From positions 3,656,205 to 3,720,204 of the forward strand of contig CM082577.2 of NCBI GenBank assembly GCA_040954595.2: DNA of 64,000 nt, read 5' to 3'. Numbering within the stretch: the first letter of the stretch is position 1; every line of letters begins with the position of its first letter. The notes below the pieces were generated by a model. That model did no database searches. It was given only the letters and a program-made list of their open reading frames with translations, and was not told the DNA's origin. Positions 3,225 through 52,455 of this stretch are shown in pieces. Origin of the DNA: Balanoglossus misakiensis (lineage: Eukaryota; Animalia; Hemichordata). The position numbers were made by a program, and so were the translations under genes.

Positions 3225-4305
3225 CTATATTTTTTTCATGTTTGTAAGCATAAAATCTAGTAACTGTCTCCTTTCGTCTTTGCCAATTCTCTTCTCGAGA
3301 AGAAGTGTTTGTTTGTACCAGCACGGTATATCAAAGTTTGTGTTTCGGCCAAGCCCTTTCTTTTCCATCAGTTCCTTGGCCTCTGCGACGTAGATGGCGG
3401 TGCACAAATCGGGGTTGTGGAGAAACTGGTAAAACACAACGCTCCCTTGTTGCAGCGCCCATTCTTTGATCGTCATCTTTCTGGCGTCACCCGCCTGGCA
3501 CACCTTGTCTTTCACTTCTTTCTTACAGTACGTGTAGGACGATATTGTCCGTTCGATGGGATGGCGCAGAATTGTGAAGTAAGAACAGGGCGATTGGATG
3601 AAATTGCACACGCCTAGCGAGAAGAGGCCAAAGTACGCCCTCTGTCGCGTGTGTTTCCCCGATTTGAAATCATTGAAGACTTGAACGTAGTTACTCAACC
3701 AAATGTACTGCGGCCTTTTCAGTCGCTTCTTTGCTGTAACATTTTCCAAACACCTGTTGGTCGTAGTCCCGGCCGATTTGGGAATGTGGACGAACACAAT
3801 CGCAGTATTTTCTCGGTAGAGTTCTCTCGTTTTCGCACCACCGTCACGGGCGAAGAAAAAGTTCGGAAGCATTTTCGTTGCATTTGACCAAGGAAAGAAC
3901 GTCGAGATAAAACCTTCCGTCCGATTAAGATCACTCACTGTCTGATCATTTTGTAAAATCGAGATATTTTCCGAACCGTCTGCATAAGTAGATATTTTCA
4001 GACTTTTCGGTTCGTAGCGCCTATGTTCGATTGTCCTGCAAAAATAAAGTTTACAAGATGTTAACAATTTGTACTTTTTATAGGCCTATGATGTTAGCAA
4101 CATCATTAAAATCCGTTTTATATTTATTAGAGGAGCTTGGCATTTTAGTGAGGTATATCGAAAGTGAAATTGAGATCGTGTAGGCCTATATTTACCTGGA
4201 AGGTATGTCCACTGATGCCATGTAAAAGATATTGATGACTCCGATTATCAGACAGAGAGGGATGACGACGGCTGCAAGTTTGGCGAGTCTGCTGATGTCC
4301 ATCAT
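3225..4305 (-). CDS. Golgi type II membrane sulfotransferase (Sulfotransfer_2/HS6ST-like), probably C-terminally truncated; 2 exons (4305-4196, 4035-3225)
   Basis: Exon 1 encodes a signal anchor MMDISRLAKLAAVVIPLCLIIGVINIFYMAS and joins exon 2 in frame across a GT-AG intron. PAPS motifs FVHIPKSAGTT and YFTILRHPIERTISSY are present. The ORF stops abruptly next to the repeat arm. Confidence 0.8.
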
Positions 4306-5671
4306 TCCAACTCCTTGACATGGTCGTCTCGATCGAGAACAGCATTCACTGGAAGACGCAAAATTCAAACAAACACGTTTCAGGTGCTATAATTCAGACT
4401 ATAAATCTCGCGATACATGGATCAATGAATATACTATTGTGGCTTTTTTGCTAGAAAGACCTGCATGTCGCAAGTTGCTGGGCATTTTTAATCAACTGGG
4501 TCTAATGTGAGGATTAGATTCTAAAGAAGATTACCATGATTACAGACTTAGGAATCCGATTAAACCCCAAAGTGTGCACAACGCAGAATTATCTGCATCT
4601 TCTTTGGTTCAGCCTCAATACAATCAGCGGACAATCGGGGTCTGTATCCACCAGGAATGCATATCAATAGGCACTCTTGGAGCTTTTCAAGCGATTCCGT
4701 GGCTATTTTCGTAACCCGAGAAGAAACATAATGCCCCATGCCCCTTGAGGTCTCTAGCTCACAGAAGAATTTTCTGAAGTGCGTTTGTCTAAATCTCTTG
4801 CATGGCGCCCTCTTTGAACCGTAAACAATCTCTTCAACTTGCTATTGTCTGACATGAACCAGTATTTTCCAACCAAACAATGAAACATGCATAAGCTAAA
4901 CTGTTGCGTTCTATTAAAACTACTGCCAGTATAAAACACGTGCATTTGGTTACCAGACACCGGTGTTATCATGTTATGTAATTCTGTATAACCGGTCATA
5001 TTCAATATTTCACAAGGACTGACAACAAAATAACAAACAGAGACTCAACAGTCAACGGTATGATATTGAATATTGATAGTGGTGACAGGTTGACTAGACA
5101 AAAAGGACTCTGTCACGAAACATACTGCCATGATCAAACACTCGTCATAATCTCAATACAGGTATGAGTCAAGTCGGAAAGAATCGAGACTGAAAATACC
5201 TTGTGTGAATCGTCACTGATCACGTAGACATTTCCTGCTTTCGCATTCGTGTAAAATGTTTGCTGTGTTACGTAACCACGCAATACCTGAGGTCAAACTC
5301 TTTTAAGACATACATGTATGAAAAATCACATTGCTTTTGGAATTTTTCAAGTATTTTCCTTTCGATGCCTCATAAATTGCATGATTTAATCACCACTCTT
5401 GGGGCATATGACGCTGAGGTAAAATTGATCGATGACAGGTCGATAATTATCTTCTTCAACCCTCTCCTGCTCTGCCGGTGTTTGTCCAGGGGTCACTGCA
5501 CATGCGTGGAGTTACGCACCTTGATCACCTGGACGGACTACCAGAAAGGCGTTATCATTTCTGCTGGTAGGAGAAAATTGTAGACCGCTGAAACTAATCT
5601 TGGGAGACTGGGAAGAAAAAAGTATACCGACAGAGCTTCTCGATGAAGACATTGGTAAGAAAGGTGCAGAG

Positions 5672-6886
5672 ATGATCGGGCGCCGTGGAAACACTCTTCG
5701 GGGTATTAGACACCACCTTCGAGTCCAACACAAGAAAGTTTTAACTCTGGTTGTGATCACCGCGGTCTATTTCGCATTTACTATCGTCGGTTCAAGGTTA
5801 GCAGCTGAACCCGATGACCCCGCCGCGGCCGGTGGTGCCCATTCCCCACCCCCTCGGGAGCTGCGGACGGCTGCCCAGCTGAACGCGGCCAGCAAAGAGT
5901 CGACTGTTCTGCCAGCGTTTCTGCCGCACCAGTCGAGGATAGACCGGGAGAGCTACGCCAGGGTGAAGTTCGGAGACTGGTGCTACTCGATGAATGAGAA
6001 AACCTTCACGCACCAAAGACCTCTCCCACCGGCGGAGCTGAAAGCGAAGAAATGTCACAAACGCCTCCCGGACGCCATAATTATCGGCGTCAAGAAATGC
6101 GGCACGGGGACACTGGTGCATTTTCTCAGCTACCACCCTTCCGTTGCCATGAAACACAACGACAGCATTGAACTTCATTTCTTTGACCTCCACCAAGATA
6201 AAGGTTACAGTTGGTACCGGGATCAACTGCTGTACACCACCACCCGACAGATAGTCGTCGAGAAATCGCCCCAGTACCTCACCTGGCCGCACGATTGTGC
6301 CAAGAAGGTCCATGACTACATATCGCCCAGAGCCAAAATCATCGTCGTCTTGTGCGACCCGGTTCGGCGAGCCGTCTCCGACTTCGTCTTTTCAACCGTC
6401 TTGCGACCAAAAGCTGACCCTCGCAGAAGGCGACACTACACGCTGAGCAAAACCTTCGAGAAGTCGGTCATCGACAACGAATTTTCCGCGAATTCGGTGA
6501 ATTTCTACAACGAAATGATCGACACCGGAATTTATGCAAAACACATCGTCCGATGGCTGGAATATTTCCCCAAGGAGCAGTTTTACGTTTTGGACGGCGG
6601 AAAGTTAAAACAGGACCCGTACACGGAAGTTCACAAAGTCGAGCGTTTTCTGGGCCTGCCAGAATTCTTTACAAGGGACCACTTTTATTTTGACGAAGTC
6701 AAACGCTTTTATTGCATGGCGTTTCCATACAGACACTGTATGGGTGGGACGAAAGGTTTGAGCCACCCCGAGGTTGACGAGGAGGTCCTTGATAAATTGT
6801 ACGAATTTTATCGACCATTTGACAAACTGTTGTCACAAATGTTCAACCGAACATTTTCGTGGATGAACGCATATGAGTTATTGTAG
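5672..6886 (+). CDS. Heparan sulfate glucosamine 3-O-sulfotransferase-like protein (single coding exon)
   Basis: N-terminal TM segment, then KRLPDAIIIGVKKCGT, ELHFFD, EKSPQY, DPVRRAVSD and C-terminal FYC...C.GGTKG.SHP, typical of HS3ST. The first ATG is at 5672; the ORF track starts at a TTG. Confidence 0.88.
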   Translation: MIGRRGNTLRGIRHHLRVQHKKVLTLVVITAVYFAFTIVGSRLAAEPDDPAAAGGAHSPPPRELRTAAQLNAASKESTVLPAFLPHQSRIDRESYARVKFGDWCYSMNEKTFTHQRPLPPAELKAKKCHKRLPDAIIIGVKKCGTGTLVHFLSYHPSVAMKHNDSIELHFFDLHQDKGYSWYRDQLLYTTTRQIVVEKSPQYLTWPHDCAKKVHDYISPRAKIIVVLCDPVRRAVSDFVFSTVLRPKADPRRRRHYTLSKTFEKSVIDNEFSANSVNFYNEMIDTGIYAKHIVRWLEYFPKEQFYVLDGGKLKQDPYTEVHKVERFLGLPEFFTRDHFYFDEVKRFYCMAFPYRHCMGGTKGLSHPEVDEEVLDKLYEFYRPFDKLLSQMFNRTFSWMNAYELL

Positions 6887-28900: not shown

Positions 28901-30342
28901 TGACTGTATGTGTGGGAATAAAAAGACATGCACTAGGTGTTGAAGAGTACCCACATTTTTTTAATGAAAGATTAATTAAATCCTGAATTCCTTAGAAAGT
29001 TTTTCACGCCTGGCCAAGTAAGAAAACACACACATGAATACAGAGATGCTGGATCAAGGTTACAGAAATGAAATTCTCTTTACCTCAATTTTATTTTCAA
29101 TATTGATGAGCCACCCGTCAAAGTTGTAGAATTTGGTAATCTCAACCAGTTGATCTGCGAGTGTTTTGTAAGACTTCTCATCTTCGAGAAACTCTTGGCA
29201 GCGTTTCAGGCCATCGTCCCACTCTGTTATAATGGTACCTGTGTATGCAAAAGGGTGGAGAGAAAATCACTGATTATCAACAAATGTCCCACCCTGGATC
29301 ATCTGGGAAAAATTTTGAGGAAATGAATCACTGAGTGATGTTATTCTGTTTCGTAACAAGTAGGTGAATGTACATATTGTACATGTAGGTGTTTTTATGG
29401 GTTTTAATAATTCAATTTTAATAAAGTAGACTGAAACATAGGGAATTTAAAATAGTAAAACGGACCCAACATTTTGACTCCATGTCTATGAGCAGCATTG
29501 GTCCATCCTGGTGGTGGTATCGTCACAAAATAATGACTGAAGTAGATGAACGTATCCAGATACTGCCAATGGTAGTGATGGTAGTAGGTTGATGTTTTGG
29601 CACCTTGCACAAATCTGCCAATCATACGTGAATATATAAGTGATTATGATAAATGTGACTGAATATTTTTAGCGATGTCCCATTAATTCTTTCTTTTTTG
29701 GGGAGAAATTGTGGTACATGTATTACAATGTACTCTTATTTGGAAAGATAGAGAGGGATTTCACTTTGGTCACACATAAGAAACAAACCTATCATCCAGG
29801 TATCCCCCCGCCATATCATGGCATAACAGTGTACGAGGCCTGGGTTTGTTACCATGGTTCCTACAGGAAAATGGATGCCTGGCGACATTAAACTTGTTGC
29901 CTGCATCCTGTTGCCATGACAACACATCATTCATAGTTTTGAGAGGTTGTGATATTGGTTCTGTGCTGTCGACTTCATAATTTACTCCTGAAAAAAAAAA
30001 ATTGGCGTGATATACACATGTACATACTAGACTGACATAGAGTGCCCATTATCACTAAGACAACAGCCAGCCCTGTCGCTGTGTGATGTATATTGGAATG
30101 TGGGATAGAGATAGCTTAAGTTCAGTAGCTCGAGGAAAGTGGACTGGTCAGTTTCTTTGGTCGGGGTGGATTCATGGGGGACTATCCACAAATAGTGTGA
30201 TATCCACGAAATAGAATACACCCCCCCCCCCCCCGCCGAAGAAACTGGCCAGTCCCTTCTATAGTGGGATGTGCGATATCACCGTGGACGTACCTAAATT
30301 TGGCACAGTATTACACAGTTCAACTTTCACGGGTTTTGACAT
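25985..30342 (-). CDS. ENGASE: Cytosolic endo-beta-N-acetylglucosaminidase (GH85), multi-exon
   Basis: RTLLCHDMAGGYLDDRF, FIYFSHYFVTIPPPGWTNAAHRHGV, FDGWLINIEN, WYDSVIDDGSLKWQDQLN, CDGIFLNYTW, VYVGVDVFGR and AIFAPGWVYE. The start codon at 30342 is inferred. Confidence 0.94.
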
Positions 30343-30555
30343 ATTGCAGGCCAAGCCTTCAGCAGTCACACACTAAGATAGCTGCTGCCGCTACCATCCA
30401 AACTACAAGCTTCGCAACCAGCTGTGAACTTTCTGTTTCGATTACTGTTTATTTGACCTCTGACACCAAATTAGTTTGTTTTAATATAGACCTTTCTTTC
30501 CTCCTGGCGCTGATTGCGCCCCGCCTCCTCTTGAACTTGCACAACAACAATCAGG
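30343..30555. promoter_or_regulatory. Probable bidirectional promoter region, ENGASE / NTAN1 (and possibly RO60)
   Basis: The two inferred ATGs diverge about 213 bp apart. A GC-box-like CCCCGCC and a CCAAT-like CTGATTG lie near 30510-30525. Confidence 0.55.
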
Positions 30556-33500
30556 ATGCCCGTATCTATAAGCGATCAGGCGCTACTGAAAATAGAATCT
30601 GTGACAGAATTCATCGAGAAATATCCACATTTCAAGGTAAGGACCGTGTGTACTTCTAAGACAAAGCAAGACTGGAGTGGAGTTTATTTCATGAAGAAAT
30701 TGATCAAGTTAAAGACTGCACCCAGGCCTCACGACTTCCGAAGTTATCCACCGCTACAAGTTACATGGTCTGAGCAGTGAGTCAGTGTAAAATTACATTC
30801 TATAAAATTTAACTACAAACTGATGAACGACGGATTGTTAATTGTTACTAGATCTGCTGACATGTTCAACAGTTTCGCCAACGTTGGCAAAAAACACCAT
30901 GATTGCATTCAGTGAGGTCAACCCCCCCCCTTCCGTGTTCTATTTTTAGATATGACATCATTGCTTAGTAAGCAAAAAGGACGTCTATATAAATTGCTTT
31001 CACTGACAAATTCCCTTTTACGCATCCTGTTGTCGTAGCGTACACTGCAGTGTTGGTTAACTGGTTATACATCCGCTTGACATACCGTACGTGACAGAGA
31101 TCTGACACGATGGCCCAGGCTTTGAGTGGTGTACTGCAATATGTCACTGGCTTCGGAAGGACGACGGAGTCGCTCGGGAATGAAACCGGTCAACGTGAAA
31201 TGGCAAGAGAAGACCAGGTGTTGAACAGTGCAGGGGGATACGTCTGGCAGGTGTCAGACATAAACAGACTGAGGAGGTTTCTGTGCCTTGGATCTGAGGG
31301 AGGCACTTTCTACATTGGCGAGAAGGAGCTGGGCAGACAGAATGCCGAGTGCATTCAACGAATGATTTCCAACGGCGAAGGGGAAAAGGTTGTTGAAGAA
31401 ATCAAAACTTTCAGCGTGGAAGGACGAGCGGCCAAACAGAATCCGATCATCTTCGCTCTGGCGATCTGCGCTAGAGATGACGACAAGAAGACCAAAAAGG
31501 CTGCCTACGGCGCCCTGAACGACATCTGCCGGATTCCGACACATCTGTTCACTTTCATCGAATTCTGCGAGAGCCTGAGCAGAGGCACTGGGTGGGGGAG
31601 AGCGCATCGCAATGCAGTCCGAAACTGGTACAAGAGGAAGAAGGGCAAACAGTTGGCTCTTGCGGTCACCAAGTACAGACAGCGCAATGGCTGGACACAC
31701 CGAGACGTTTTGAGACTCGCTCACATCAAGTCGAGGAAGAAATCGACAGCCGCGGTGTTCAAGTACATCATCAAGGGACTGAAAGAGGCCCAAGAAGAGT
31801 TCGGTCGGGTCTCCGAGTCCGATTCGGTTGCCGACAACGATTCTGAGGAGTCTGAAACGCAGGAGGTGTCACAGGTGTTGGAATTCCTGGGCGGAGTAGA
31901 AGAAGCAAGGATGGCCAAGGAGGCGAACAGAATGGTGGAGTTGATCGAGAAGCACAGACTCGTCAGAGAGCACATTCCGACCGAACTCTTGAGTTCACAA
32001 GAGGTGTGGAGAGCCCTCCTGCAGGACATGCCCATGACTGCCATGCTGAGAAACCTCGCCAAGATGACGGCTATCGAGCTGCTGGCTCCGGGCAGGCCAG
32101 AAGTCGACGTGGTCTGTCAGAGACTGAGAAACGACGAATTGCTGAGGAGGGCCCGAATCCACCCCTTCAACGTGCTGGTTGCGTTGAGGACGTACCAATC
32201 AGGTCACGGCGACAGAGGAAAACTGAAGTGGGCTCCAAATCGCATGATTACCGAAGCTTTAGACTTCGCTTTCTATGCATCGTTCAAGTTTGTGGAACCC
32301 ACTGGTAAACGTTTCATGTTGGGCATAGACGTCAGCGGGTCCATGAGTTCGCCAATCTTAGGCGCCAACAGCGTGACTGCGGCCTGCGGTGCTGCTGCCA
32401 TGGCGATGACCACGGCCAAGACGGAGGAGGATTATAAAGTGGTGGGTTTCTCGCACAAGCTGGTTCCCATCGATATCAACCCCAGCATGAGGCTTGATGA
32501 AGTCCTCAGCGTGGTCTGCCGGATTCCAATGGGCGCGACAGACTGCGCGCTTCCCATGATCCACGCCCTGCAGAAGAAGATCCCAATAGACGTGTTCATC
32601 GTGTACACCGACTGCGAGACCTGGTTCGGCAACGTGCACCCATTTCAAGCCCTGCGCGACTACCGCGCCAAAATGGGCATCGATGCCAAACTGATCGTCT
32701 GTGGGATGACGTCCACCGGCTTCACCATTGCCGATCCCAGCGATGCCGGAATGTTGGACATGGCAGGTTTTGATGCAGCAGCGCCGGAAGTCATTCGAAA
32801 CTTTGTCCTTGGTAATATCTAGAGACAGCATTTCAAATACTTTAGGAACTTATGGGATACTAATTGCCTCCAAACACAGACCCTTACACATACCCCTGAC
32901 AGTTGTATATAATATTGTATATAATTCATAGTTATCATTTTCTCAATATCATGCATTTTCCATTTAAATATTTTCCATTTCATATTTTTCAGTTTTCACG
33001 TGTGTTTTCATTTTTTTTCAAAACCAACAAGTTAGAGTGATTTTAGCTAGCATTCACCCAATTCATTGATGATACTTAATCATGTGTGTACATTATTTCA
33101 AGAAATGTAATTCTGTTGAATATGAGTCAATAAAACGTATGCCTTTTACTGTCACAAGTCTTTGTGTTTTTGTTTCTTTTTCTGAAAAAAAAAAGATTGC
33201 TGACTATAGAAAATATTCAGCCATGTTGCAGGGTAATTACCTCTTGTATCATTTACATTTCACAAAAGTTGAAGCCAATCCAAAAACTAAACAAAATATT
33301 TGCAGTAATTATTACCAAACAATGACTGGACACAAAGCAATTTTATCACTTTGACTATTAAGTCAGGGTTGAGATAACACAACCTGTTATGAACACATTT
33401 GTTTTGTTGGTTGTGGTTTTCAGGAGTCTGCTGCCAAGCTTACCAGTCAACCAAGGAGGGAGGTTGGTCCCCAAGGCCTGTTGTATGTTGGTCAGCGAGA

Positions 33501-36500
33501 ATTTGCTACAACCACACCAGAAGATGGTAGGTCTATGATTGCCGTGGTGACTAAGCACATCTCCCTCCCCAATGTAAAAGCGTCATATAAAAATTGAATA
33601 TAACATAATTATGATCTGTAAGATTCGGTAATGTAAAATATTTCATCAAAACATTTTATCAATTCAAATATTGTCTCTTTCTTTTCAGATTCAATTCAAG
33701 TCATGGGTGCTGAAGATGCAACAACCTGCCACTTGACAGTTCTAAGACACACGGGTATGATGCAGTAAATGTAAAGTAAAATAGTGATCATTAAACTTTT
33801 TACTCATTGACAGACATTTGATGTTTTCATATGTCATTTCTTGACAAGTACAGGATGCTGAAAGGAATTCCCCGTAGCAGATGTGAAAGTTATCGCGATC
33901 CACTGAATGTTGTCTTCATTGCTTCTACAGGAAGCGGAGCTGTGTGTCTTTCACACTGCGATGGTTCTAGTGTACCGGCTGGCATCAAGGAGATGATTGG
34001 AGAAGTTGTTCGTCTGTCCGAGGGTCAAGATGGCCGGTAAGCTCAGTAACATTCACACTGATTGGCTACTGAAGGAGAATGTTGAACTCCGGGGACCAAC
34101 CGTAGCGTGTGTGAAGTTTATCTGCCCTATTGTCTCGCCTTTTCTGTCTGTAGGTTGGAATTACATGTGGTTGGTGGTTTCCTTGACGATAGGAAAATCT
34201 CCGCAGGGTTATTTCTGGAAATCCTAAGTGAGTAATTTGATTCTCAGCTAGCTCAGACAGTGTTTCTGGTACAAAATATATTACAAAATTGCAGGACAAA
34301 ACTAATGATACGGTTTCCCTTTTTCTCTTGTTATAAACAGATTCATTTCATGAGTCTTCCGAAGAAATACATTTGCAGACTGCTTGTACAACAGGTAATA
34401 TGTCAGAAAATTTGATTATTATTTTAACATTTTTAATTCCTTTTACTCATTGAATGAAAATCAGACAAATGTCTGTCACCAGTTTGAAGACTGTCTCACA
34501 AAATACTCAAATTTATTTCCTGGGTTGTTTTGAAGGTTATGTTTACAAAAAGCAGTGTGCCATGAATCGGCAAGAGATCACTTGTTTGGCATAGAAGGGC
34601 AATTAATTCATCTCCTCAGCTATTGTGTTCATAGTTCCGTAATTTAGGCTGTACCATATAATACAACATTGTCAGTATAGACAGTGCTAGCTTAAATCAT
34701 CCTGATTTATGGCACATCACTTCTTATTTTCTCTTGGTTCTCTAGATTTGAATGATGTTGTGAAAAATGGCATCCATTGGCCAATAATCTACGGCATAGG
34801 TAAGTGTTTCACGACACCTGTGAAACATAATGTCTTGACTCAAACCCTTGATAAACAGGAAAACTGCCTTCACTGAACACAAAATGCATCTAAGAGAAAG
34901 CAAACTTTTGTTGATGTGAATTCAAAAATCTTGCAAGATGTTTTGTTGCCAGGAAATGATATCAGGTGTGTTTTGACTTCACAGGTGTGGATGTGAAGAC
35001 GGGTGAAATTTTCCCTGCGTATTTCCCGGAGAAAGGTCCTGATGATGTCGCTAGGGGAGCCAGAAACATGATTGGCAAAGATGCACGTGTAAGGATACCT
35101 CTCTTTCTGAATCTTTTGATCCAGAACTGGCATTGTCCTTGAGAAAATGACTCGTTTCTAATGGTTTATGATCAATTTCACATATTGAGTGCCTACAACC
35201 GACGTTTTGCATTTGTTGCAGATGGCAAGTATATACGATTTCAGAAATAGGCAGTTACGGATTGGTCCATTCCAGTATGCGCCGTGGCCCGATGCCAAGC
35301 TGTGGTTGTCACAGTCTGATGAGGTCATTCTTAATGTGAGTTTTCCAGTTACCGTGATGAGGTAGTGTAAGGGGTCATGGATAATTGAAATATGCACATT
35401 ACATATACAAACACTACTAATTATGTTTGATCTCAAAGTGCCTTCCTCCCTCTCTCCCTGTGTGACACCGTAGTGGGTCGGCTATTGTGAGGCAGTTCAT
35501 GCTATGAGTAGTACCAGTACAGGATGTTTGGGCCCATGTCAGACTGAGGACAGGGTATATCACATTCCTCCCTTTTGTTGTTCTATGGGTTGGCATTTTC
35601 AATGGTCTTAAGCTGCCACACATTTCAGAATGCTCACAGCCGATTGGATAAGGAATTTGCACACCAGGTGCGCATGCCAGGTGGCAACTGATAATTTCAT
35701 ATCCTGCAATATACTGCTGCAAGGGTGGCTGCGTCATTGCATGCTTATGTGATTCCATTGACTGTGGCTGGGATGGAACAGAGTGCATGCTGCCTTGGCC
35801 TGTGCCTTACTGCTTTAACTGCAATTGCCCTAACCCTTTCACCCCTATTTCCCTATTTAGAGGTCCAACCTTACCATAGAAAACAATGGGTTTGGACTGA
35901 ACCATGGTTGTGAAAGGGTTAACAGTGCTGTCTTTTAAGTTACTCAGCCTTGCATCTTGTCAACCTCTTTTGCTCAGGCTTTTTTCATATCTTAGCATGC
36001 TCAGATAGAATCACCTCTATGCTCAGTGCACTACTAGGTGTTTAAAAGAAACCTTAAATTAAACACAGGTGTTCTTACATGGCAGGTGCAGACTGCAATT
36101 TATTGCTTTCCTAATGTCGATATAAAAATCCTGAGATCTAATCTCAGGAACTCAACCTATTTTCCCTACAGTCTATATCAACATCCCCCAAAGTGGAGCC
36201 ACCGTATTATATGGCAAGAAAGAGAAGCTTCGTCAATTACTACATTGATAACCCCAATACCGCAATTTCTCTGTTTCCAAATGGCAAAGCAAGGTTGTAC
36301 AGAAAAGACAGCGCTGGCTTGTGGACAAAAATTGAGTAATGGCGGTGTGAGTAATTCAGAAGCCTTGCATGTTGAATGCTGAAGCAAAGTTTCTGTTTAT
36401 AGAATTAGAAGACTGTTGTTTTGGGGTGGCTCAAAGGCCTCTGGGTATTTAAAAGTGCAGTATGACATGTTTTAAAGAAACATGTTATTCTTTGTCTCTT

Positions 36501-42997: not shown

Positions 42998-45017
42998 ATG
43001 TCAAATACGTTGAAAGCCTACGAGAAAGTACCGACTGTCAGTTCGGCGACTGTACTGGTAAGAATGTAGGAATCGCATAATTGTACCCCCAATTCGAATG
43101 GTTTGTCAACAAATACACACAGTACTTGAAATTAGTACAATTGTTTATTTACATGTACATACCCATACTTTATTTCTCCAGTTGGTTGGTGCAGATGGAA
43201 CAGGGAAACACAAACTGGCCCAGGCCTTGGTGGACATCTGTATAAATTTTACCCTCCAAGTGTAAGTTGAAAAAAGGCTTACAATGGCCTGAAAAGGTCA
43301 TCCTGAGAGAGACTAGAGAGAGACAGAAATTCATGAAAAGATCAGCTGGTTATTTGTCGTTATTTCATGTTTCTTCAATGTTTGTTGTACAATTAATTGT
43401 ATCAAGAGATTGTGTGAATGTTTCTGTGCATACACACCACTATCCACTCTGCTTGTTCTCCACTAACTTTTGTGGGTTTATTTTGTTACCATTGACCTAT
43501 CAAGGAGAATAGCTAACAGCCTACCACTGCCACCAGAAAATGCTGAAAGCAGACCAGGAATAGACTTCGTGGTGTTTATCACAGATCTAGCCAACAGATA
43601 CAGGTAAATATTCACATCAGCCGTGTTTCATCTGGGCTGTGGGATTGCATGATTAATAGTGTGCATGCGACTTGCAAGTATAAAGAAAGCAAAATACTGG
43701 GAGATATAAACACCCTTTTCATAAGTCTAGCGCCCTCATACATCCATCATGAATTTGAACTCAAAGCGAGGCCAATGGGGAAAGTTGACCAATCACATCA
43801 AGACTTATGAAAAGGGCAAAGCTATGTTGTGGTCAACAATAACTATTCTCACTTTCATCTTTGCAGTTTCACTGTAATTGAATCTTCTGTTAACTACCTG
43901 GATGTGGACTATTTCCTTGGGAAAGCGTGTTTTGTGGTGAAACAGGCCAGTAGACCTGATTTGCAACATGTTGACATGACTGCAGTGACTGGTCTGTGTG
44001 ATGCCTACGACTCCCCAATGATATGTGGCAATACAGAGGTCAGTTCTTGGGGGGTACATTCTTTGCGTGTACAACACAGAGTACAACTACACGAGACTGA
44101 ATCCATCATCTTTGTCGTTTGTTTTTCCGCCTTACATGAAAACAGTACATATACAATTAAATACAACAATAAAAAGTTTGCTTTATTGATAAGGAAAATT
44201 ATACAGAGTTGTCTAAATAGGAACAAACATGTAAAAAACTTTATCAAGGTATTTGAGAAATTGTGCAAAATGCCCTTCCATATTTTCAGTAGTCTATTCA
44301 TGAACAACAGCAATCATTGGTGGACTGAAACTTCAGTCCTATTTTTGTAAGGCTATAAAATTATGAAGTGATCTGAATGAAATATCTGCAAGAGGTGGAC
44401 ACAGACCTGCCTCTCATGGACTGAACACTACAGACTACAGAAGAAACTACTTATAAAAGTAGAACCAGTACTGACCTTAATTTCAAAAACTTATGTATTA
44501 CCCTGTTTTTTTTAAAGTATTTCTGTGAGGTACACAGTTATCAGTGACTGAGCACAAGTCGACAAAACGAATTCTGTACATACATGTACATACATAGAGA
44601 AGTTACCCGCTTATTAGTTGTCATTTTTGTAAAACTATACAGAGGTAGTAACAAATACAGAATAGAAAAAGTGCAGAAAAATGTTGACAAAATAGATCAT
44701 GTACAGAAAATACATGGAGAAAATTACCTGTGTGATCTAGTTATCATTGTTCTTTAATCTAGATATTACACCTCATCGTACCTTCACAGAAATAAATATA
44801 TCTTGTAACGGTATTTAATTTTCTAAATCTTGCCAACTGTTTTCTGATCAGTTACACATAATTCTGCTGTTTCTGATTTTTTTTACAGACAGAAGATGAC
44901 TGTCGCTGCCTGGCAAGAAAGCTGTTGACAATGACAGAAATAGCTGCTGGTTTCAAACCAGGTGTAACTTCAATGTTGGTAGCTTCCACAAAACGTACAT
45001 TTGCGTTTGAAAAATGA
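42998..45017 (+). CDS. CENPM: Centromere protein M, 5 exons
   Basis: MSNTLKAYEKVPTVSSATVLLVG, IANSLPLP...RPGIDFVVF, DVDYFLGKACFV, AYDSPMICG and IAAGFKPGVTS match CENP-M. Confidence 0.88.

Positions 45018-51383: not shown

Positions 51384-52455
<1,072 letters not shown>

What the first reader, a model, noticed from the sequence alone, without database searches (positions are those of the whole stretch)
30556..33424. Intact intronless RO60 nested on the same strand inside NTAN1 intron 1
Seen: a complete 570-aa Ro60 ORF with no introns lies between NTAN1 exon 1 (ends 30636) and exon 2 (starts 33424), whereas most neighbouring genes are intron-rich. Known: vertebrate RO60 is multi-exon and unlinked to NTAN1, and same-strand nesting is uncommon. 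Inference: a retroposed RO60 that uses the ENGASE/NTAN1 promoter. Each transcript would then yield either Ro60 (RNA quality control) or NTAN1 (N-degron protein quality control), depending on splicing versus intronic polyadenylation.
Basis: partly seen in the sequence, partly recalled or inferred. Interest (0 to 1): 0.8.

Follow-up and report, generated by a model that had tools for sequence, protein, structure and literature searches.

The report
Old second Ro60 nested inside NTAN1
In what is likely an acorn worm, an intact RNA-quality-control gene (Ro60) with an intron-free coding sequence lies inside the first intron of the unrelated NTAN1 gene, a pairing likely kept for over 370 million years, and it likely has its own start and stop signals rather than sharing the host gene's first exon.

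Summary
Observation confirmed. A 570-aa Ro60 frame (31110-32822) lies on the same strand inside the 2,787-nt intron 1 of an intact 10-exon NTAN1.

New: it belongs to one of two acorn-worm Ro60 lineages ('A', with Glandiceps and Saccoglossus; 100/99 support). In both species Ro60-A and NTAN1 are recorded on contigs of identical length, including a 589,090-bp Saccoglossus scaffold; paralogue B is not. The linkage, and likely the nesting, is therefore older than 370 My. Bacterial origin is rejected (p-AU 0.005). Retroposition is plausible but unproven.

Exon-1-led transcripts would carry up to seven upstream ATGs or stop right after the best acceptor. A TATATAAA at 30986 gives an ATG-free leader, and an AATAAA with a U-rich element at 33129 would close an independent unit. 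A weak in-frame acceptor at 31097 keeps a fusion isoform possible. No RNA data were available.

Same-strand intronless nesting is a known kind; its age, the second Ro60 lineage and that lineage's extra basic and acidic patches were not found in print.

The parts
31110..32822 (+). Ro60-A CDS, 570 aa, no intron; TROVE 38-358, vWA 401-566; ATG with A at -3 and G at +4
30556..30636 (+). NTAN1 coding exon 1 (27 codons), phase-0 donor GTAAGG at 30637
30637..33423 (+). NTAN1 intron 1, 2,787 nt, GT-AG, holds the whole Ro60-A unit
33424..36339 (+). NTAN1 exons 2-10 (33424-33526, 33689-33754, 33931-34036, 34154-34227, 34341-34394, 34746-34799, 34985-35088, 35222-35335, 36172-36339)
   Evidence: stop-free 307 aa; Pfam PF14736 on exons 2 and 10
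30986..30993 (+). TATATAAA box; predicted Ro60-A start near 31015-31020 with a ~90-nt ATG-free leader
   Evidence: 287 of 5000 shuffles hold any TATAWAWR, 25 of 5000 one with an ATG-free leader (criterion chosen after seeing the sequence); function inferred
33129..33190 (+). AATAAA (33129-33134) plus U/GU-rich downstream element; predicted Ro60-A 3' end, about 290 nt before NTAN1 exon 2
   Evidence: only AATAAA on + between 30000 and 36887; downstream T content ties for the highest of 53 AATAAA on +; 115 of 5000 shuffles as good
31075..31097 (+). Weak acceptor (10/20 pyrimidines) that would fuse exon 1 in frame to Ro60 via four extra codons
   Evidence: true NTAN1 acceptors have 12-17/20
30927..30949 (+). 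Strong acceptor-like site (17/20 pyrimidines); exon-1 frame stops after one codon and a further ATG follows at 30952
31110..31151 (+). N-terminal amphipathic extension (first 14 aa), shared by the three Ro60-A proteins, absent from paralogue B and vertebrates
   Evidence: moment p=0.005, 0.003, 0.025; helix 2-12 at low pLDDT
31635..31877 (+). Ro60-A-specific basic patch (aa 176-217, net +12) and longer acidic insert (aa 226-256, net -10)
30294..30342 (-). Predicted ENGASE coding exon 1 (phase-1 donor at 30293 fits the next exon); ATG 214 nt from the NTAN1 ATG, head to head
   Evidence: frame fit only; ENGASE Pfam hits on downstream exons

Best explanation
Ro60-A is an intact Ro60 gene with an intron-free coding sequence lying inside NTAN1 intron 1; it is likely an old retro-copy that settled there before acorn-worm families split, and it is likely transcribed as its own unit from the intronic TATA box to the intronic poly(A) signal. 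Shown: the ORF, the host exon structure, the paralogue clade, the animal origin, and same-length contigs for both genes in two other acorn worms. Inferred: NTAN1 pre-mRNA starts at the bidirectional ENGASE/NTAN1 promoter and splices the whole Ro60 unit out. The exon-1 donor would shield the intronic poly(A) site (U1 telescripting), while transcripts that start at the inner TATA lack that donor and would be cut there. The start site, not a splice choice, would then decide the product. The protein likely binds Y-like or misfolded RNAs as other Ro60s do, with a changed surface.
For: ORF and domains. Host model. Clade window+Glandiceps A+Saccoglossus A 100/99 (same). Paralogue B differs from NTAN1 in 3 of 3 acorn worms, and Ro60 differs from NTAN1 in 4 of 4 other species compared. 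The Glandiceps NTAN1 model lacks exon 1 and starts with two extra residues then exon 2, as expected if a same-strand gene interrupts intron 1. TATA, ATG-free leader and poly(A) signal. All three Ro60-A proteins begin with their own homologous N-terminus, none with NTAN1 exon 1. H187 and the MIDAS DxSxS..T..D are kept (roles from PMC11277228, passages).
Against: No RNA, CAGE or 3'-end data (one search listed no run). The TATA test is post hoc, and TATAWAWR occurs 27 times on + in 64 kb. The poly(A) site is 2.5 kb from the exon-1 donor, whereas most protective donor-like sites lie within 1 kb of the signals they guard (PMC8316553, passage); six weak U1-like sites (7/11 match) lie in the kilobase before it and would be present in both transcript types. 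No Ptychodera flava Ro60-A appeared among the 120 hits listed: unannotated or lost. No target-site duplication seen; A+B sisterhood unresolved.
Confidence: 0.6

Rival explanations
1. One reading: Ro60-A is an alternative last exon of the NTAN1 unit. Transcripts start at the ENGASE/NTAN1 promoter and either splice to exon 2 (NTAN1) or splice or read into the intron and end at 33129 (Ro60), possibly as an exon-1-Ro60 fusion through the acceptor at 31097.
For: An AG at 31097 is in frame and sits right after the last in-frame stop; strong acceptor-like site at 30949; intronic poly(A) signal is good; Ro60 ATG is only 554 nt from the NTAN1 ATG; CpG o/e stays 0.7-1.0 from 30250 to about 33000; the Glandiceps NTAN1 model's missing exon 1 could mean exon 1 was given to the Ro60 model.
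Against: The 31097 acceptor has 10/20 pyrimidines, below all nine real acceptors (12-17). An unspliced leader has seven upstream ATGs, all closing before 31110; splicing to 30949 stops after one codon and adds another ATG. Neither relative's Ro60-A record carries NTAN1 exon 1, and Saccoglossus has both a full NTAN1 and a separate Ro60-A record.
Confidence: 0.22
2. The gene is real and independent but not a retro-copy of paralogue B: it is an older Ro60 lineage that lost introns in place or moved as DNA, and the nesting is neutral.
For: A and B are not grouped in any of three trees; forcing them together is borderline (p-AU 0.055). By E-value, Amphiura and sponge Ro60s rank above paralogue B. 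The N-terminal amphipathic extension also occurs in Amphiura X1, Lingula and Lineus. An octocoral-like locus has an unbroken stretch over aa 395-570 (L010), so intron-poor Ro60 may occur elsewhere.
Against: The Saccoglossus B model lacks a block whose ends match vertebrate exon 3 (boundaries 194-267 recalled; the 3' end agrees with deletions in Latimeria and Phrynosoma records), so B likely keeps ancestral introns; loss of all introns at once is most simply RNA-mediated.
Confidence: 0.2
3. Horizontal transfer of a bacterial Rsr gene, which would explain the lack of introns and high GC3.
For: Intron-free; GC3 0.67 against 0.43 for NTAN1.
Against: Bacterial loci are 41-45% identical (7 of 7), animals 51-72%; grouping A with three bacteria is rejected, p-AU 0.005; other long exons in the window have GC3 0.51-0.63.
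Confidence: 0.02
4. A silent processed pseudogene or an assembly artefact.
For: No expression data; this exact protein is not in the collection.
Against: 570 open codons, 69-72% identity to orthologues across families split over 370 My ago, key residues kept, same linkage in two other assemblies.
Confidence: 0.03

Closest known systems
Same-strand, intronless nested genes of Drosophila (Assis 2016, PMC5174743; passages read)
   Same: Intronless internal gene, same strand, in the host's longest intron.
   Different: Here the pairing is likely over 370 My old, sits 0.5 kb from the host start, and both partners are conserved housekeeping-type genes.
Mouse Mcts2/H13 and Nap1l5/Herc3 retrogene-host pairs (PMC7470969; passages read)
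   Same: Single-exon gene in a host intron with its own intragenic promoter, tied to intronic polyadenylation of host transcripts.
   Different: Mcts2 is over 90 My old, in intron 4 and imprinted; no imprinting or host truncation is shown here.
Vertebrate RO60/TROVE2 (PDB 9nen, 1yvp) and bacterial Rsr (2nvo)
   Same: TROVE plus vWA, E about 1e-192 to human and Xenopus chains, H187 and MIDAS kept.
   Different: No coding introns; second paralogue; N-terminal amphipathic extension; basic patch +10 to +12 (median +4 of 120 hits) and acidic insert; no Y RNA found nearby.

Membership tests
Ro60/TROVE2 | TROVE domain followed by Ro60 vWA domain | tested here: met
   (both far above cut-off); model pTM 0.73
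Ro60/TROVE2 | MIDAS DxSxS..T..D and Y-RNA residue H187 | tested here: met
   D376, S378, S380, T445, D469, H187 (Xenopus numbers) kept in 12 of 12 rows; roles from PMC11277228; other residue numbers checked were recalled
Ro60/TROVE2 | Binds a Y RNA | tested here: inconclusive
   No Rfam hit at gathering score in the window; 4 sub-threshold hits, none a Y RNA, in 29900-33700; binding itself untestable
Retrogene | Coding introns of the parent are absent | tested here: met
   CDS unbroken; vertebrate intron positions recalled, one supported by deletions
Retrogene | An intron-bearing parent paralogue exists elsewhere | tested here: inconclusive
   Paralogue B in three acorn worms; introns only inferred from a gapped model; own genome not held
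Retrogene | Poly(A) remnant and target-site duplication | tested here: inconclusive
   A10 at 33185-33194 but no flanking duplication; neither is expected to survive 370 My
Same-strand nested gene | Whole gene within one intron of an intact host on the same strand | tested here: met
Same-strand nested gene | Own transcription start | not testable with these tools
   Sequence signs only; no RNA run listed
Alternative last exon sharing the host promoter | Usable junction or leader from host exon 1 to the inner ORF | tested here: inconclusive
   one weak in-frame acceptor; strong acceptor gives a stop; seven upstream ATGs if unspliced
Horizontally acquired bacterial Rsr | Groups with bacterial homologues | tested here: not met
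   p-AU 0.005

The most novel reading that the evidence does not exclude
For over 370 My acorn worms have kept a single locus in which RNA quality control (Ro60-A) and N-degron protein quality control (NTAN1) are coupled: firing of the inner TATA promoter or use of the intronic poly(A) site switches output from NTAN1 to Ro60-A, perhaps with an exon-1-Ro60 fusion, and Ro60-A is a specialised, membrane-tethered Ro60 with a different RNA-binding surface and no Y RNA partner.
Probability: 0.15. Interest if true: 0.75.

Novelty: new member of a known kind. Interest (0 to 1): 0.42.

Why it matters
It is a very old, compact same-strand nesting: an intact gene with a good poly(A) signal inside a 2.8-kb first intron that the host must splice across. 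That makes it a natural reporter for how start site and U1 decide poly(A) site use in an invertebrate deuterostome (Saccoglossus is a laboratory animal). It also shows that acorn worms carry two Ro60 lineages, one of which annotation seems to miss, with surface differences that bear on what Ro60 binds outside vertebrates. If the two genes merely coexist, it is an ordinary nested gene of unusual age.

Tried and rejected
No whole genome is held, so an intron-bearing Ro60 could not be sought in this animal. RNA runs: no RNA holder listed. A homologue search with NTAN1 exon 10 alone found nothing (0 of 7 candidates); it worked through representatives and an exon alignment. Two exon alignments were dropped for misplacing exons. 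Exon 1 alone gave no Pfam or PDB hit. Y RNA: none by Rfam. Splice-donor depletion in the CDS against 3000 synonymous shuffles: GTRAG 0 vs 2.7 (p=0.048) and a wider donor set 2 vs 6.1 (p=0.026), but no depletion by U1 match; 2 of 8 measures nominal, not accepted. High GC3 as a foreign signature: rejected. Viral origin: one viral locus at 41% to an unnamed Ro60; not pursued. Accession numbers in Glandiceps differ by 335, so they give no sign of adjacency. The 46-row careful tree did not finish (quick tree used); a 24-row LG+G4 careful tree did, but placed echinoderms oddly, so deep nodes are not trusted. Literature searches 'Ro60 + intronless' (6 papers, listing only, none relevant), 'hemichordate + Ro60' (0) and 'NTAN1 + nested gene' (0) found no description; subscription papers and supplements were not seen.

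Full report
OBSERVATION. The window holds an unbroken 570-codon frame at 31110-32822 with TROVE and Ro60 vWA domains. It matches human and Xenopus Ro60 structures at E about 1e-192. Ten exons from 30556 to 36339 splice with 9 of 9 GT-AG introns into a stop-free 307-aa NTAN1. Exon 1 alone is too short for Pfam or PDB, but it matches the first 27 residues of Ptychodera (13/27) and Saccoglossus (10/27) NTAN1, 0 of 2000 shuffles as good, and human NTAN1 likewise has 27 residues before the exon-2 match. The Ro60 frame therefore lies inside intron 1 (30637-33423), the longest of nine. ENGASE lies head to head; its predicted first coding exon (30342-30294, minus) fits by frame only.

WHAT IT IS. The best hits are acorn-worm proteins: Glandiceps 72%, Saccoglossus 69%. 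Both species, and Ptychodera flava, also have a second Ro60 at 56-57%. Trees of 77, 46 and 24 rows all join the window protein with those two top hits (clade A; 100/99) and place the second copies apart (clade B; 94/92). Forcing A with three bacterial Rsr proteins is rejected (p-AU 0.005); forcing A with B is borderline (p-AU 0.055), so A's parent is not identified. Deep nodes vary between trees and are not relied on. GC3 is 0.67, against 0.43 for NTAN1 but 0.51-0.63 for five other exon stretches in the window. The MIDAS residues and H187 are kept (roles from PMC11277228, passages).

Clade A has its own features. Residues 176-217 carry net +12 (orthologues +10, the top two of 120 hits; median +4), and residues 226-256 form a longer acidic insert (-10; orthologues -8 and -9; median -2, though several unrelated hits have similar inserts). 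The first 14 residues are amphipathic in all three A proteins and not in B or vertebrates, but also in Amphiura X1, Lingula and Lineus, so that trait is older than clade A or recurrent. The predicted model (pLDDT 80, pTM 0.73) gives residues 2-12 as a low-confidence helix.

AGE OF THE PAIRING. DNA of relatives could not be read, so linkage was taken from recorded contig lengths. Saccoglossus Ro60-A and NTAN1 are both on a 589,090-bp contig; Glandiceps Ro60-A and NTAN1 both on 28,985,948 bp. Paralogue B differs from NTAN1 in 3 of 3 acorn worms, and Ro60 differs from NTAN1 in the 4 other species I compared (Lingula, Owenia, Gigantopelta, Anolis sagrei; not an exhaustive comparison). With a Saccoglossus genome of roughly 0.76 Gb (recalled) a shared 589-kb scaffold by chance is about 1 in 1000. 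The Glandiceps NTAN1 record lacks exon 1 and begins with two residues then exon 2, the kind of model expected when a same-strand gene interrupts intron 1 (inference). No P. flava Ro60-A is among the 120 hits listed, although its NTAN1 is full length; it is unannotated or lost. Ptychoderids and spengelids split over 370 My ago and harrimaniids earlier (PMC11175523, passages). Linkage of that age is well supported; nesting of that age is likely but not read directly.

ORIGIN. Retroposition fits the intron-free CDS and the second paralogue. The Saccoglossus B record lacks a block whose ends match vertebrate exon 3 (residues 194-267, recalled); deletions in Latimeria and Phrynosoma records end at the same place. 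B therefore likely keeps old introns. No target-site duplication was seen and the A10 run at 33185-33194 is uninformative at this age. About 70% for an RNA-mediated origin.

HOW IT IS LIKELY EXPRESSED. A transcript from the NTAN1 promoter that kept the first 470 nt of the intron would carry seven ATGs before the Ro60 start, all closing upstream. Splicing to the best acceptor (30949, 17/20 pyrimidines) stops the exon-1 frame after one codon and adds an ATG at 30952. Only the weak AG at 31097 (10/20; real acceptors 12-17) gives an in-frame fusion. In contrast, TATATAAA at 30986 predicts a start near 31015-31020 and a 90-nt leader with no ATG, ending in a good start context. Any TATAWAWR appears in 287 of 5000 shuffles of this stretch, and one with an ATG-free leader in 25 of 5000; the test was framed after seeing the sequence. 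At the 3' end, AATAAA at 33129 is the only one between 30000 and 36887 and has the joint most T-rich downstream stretch of 53 on the + strand (115 of 5000 shuffles as good; AATAAA alone 2077 of 5000). The simplest model is an independent unit, 31017-33150, inside the intron. NTAN1 transcripts must pass that poly(A) site; U1 bound at donor sites is known to suppress such sites (PMC8316553, passages), though mostly within 1 kb, and the exon-1 donor is 2.5 kb away. This step is inferred. Depletion of donor-like words in the CDS was nominal in 2 of 8 measures and is not counted. No RNA data could be examined.

COMPARISON. [quoted passage not shown] Mcts2/H13 is a retrogene with its own intronic promoter tied to host intronic polyadenylation (PMC7470969, passages). 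This locus works like those; it is a member of the Ro60 family and of same-strand nested genes, a probable but unproven retrogene, and not a bacterial transfer. Searches found no account of it; (listings only) found no paper on invertebrate Ro60 paralogues. PMC12135203 (passages) shows that basic surface patches vary among Ro60 homologues and matter for RNA binding in a phage protein. Earlier scan notes held nothing on this locus; one search listed six notes on other pieces, five of which also name an acorn worm.

VERDICT. Real, intact and old; a new member of a known kind. The either/or switch is possible (about 0.2) but is not the best reading. Interest 0.42.

Noticed in passing
window 30141-30255: 115-nt element with 29-nt inverted arms (83% complementary) in ENGASE intron 1; folds at z=-5.65; one copy in the window; likely a small inverted-repeat mobile element; no Rfam family.
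   Followed up: partly
window 30294-30556: ENGASE and NTAN1 start codons lie about 214 nt apart head to head, with a GC box and a CCAAT-like word (motifs recalled) just before the NTAN1 ATG: a compact bidirectional promoter.
   Followed up: partly
window 5525-6883 (+) and 3228-4085 (-): Two long single-exon sulfotransferase frames (Pfam Sulfotransfer_1 and Sulfotransfer_2), also with high GC3 and CpG.
   Followed up: partly
window 43811-44347 and 51988-52452: Exons of CENP-M and of an FtsJ-like methyltransferase.
   Followed up: no
window 33185-33283 (-): Weak U6-like Rfam match (20.9 bits, gathering 44, E=0.056) just after the Ro60 poly(A) signal; likely chance.
   Followed up: no
L010:6-539 and 2013-2267: Octocoral-like Ro60 pieces in tandem order (C-terminal part then a new N-terminus), the first unbroken over aa 395-570; Xenia has three Ro60 records on one contig, so tandem, possibly intron-poor, Ro60 arrays may exist in soft corals.
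   Followed up: partly
window 30952-30993: CRE-like words TGACATCA (30953) and GGACGTC just before the TATA box (motif identity recalled), possible upstream elements of a Ro60-A promoter.
   Followed up: no
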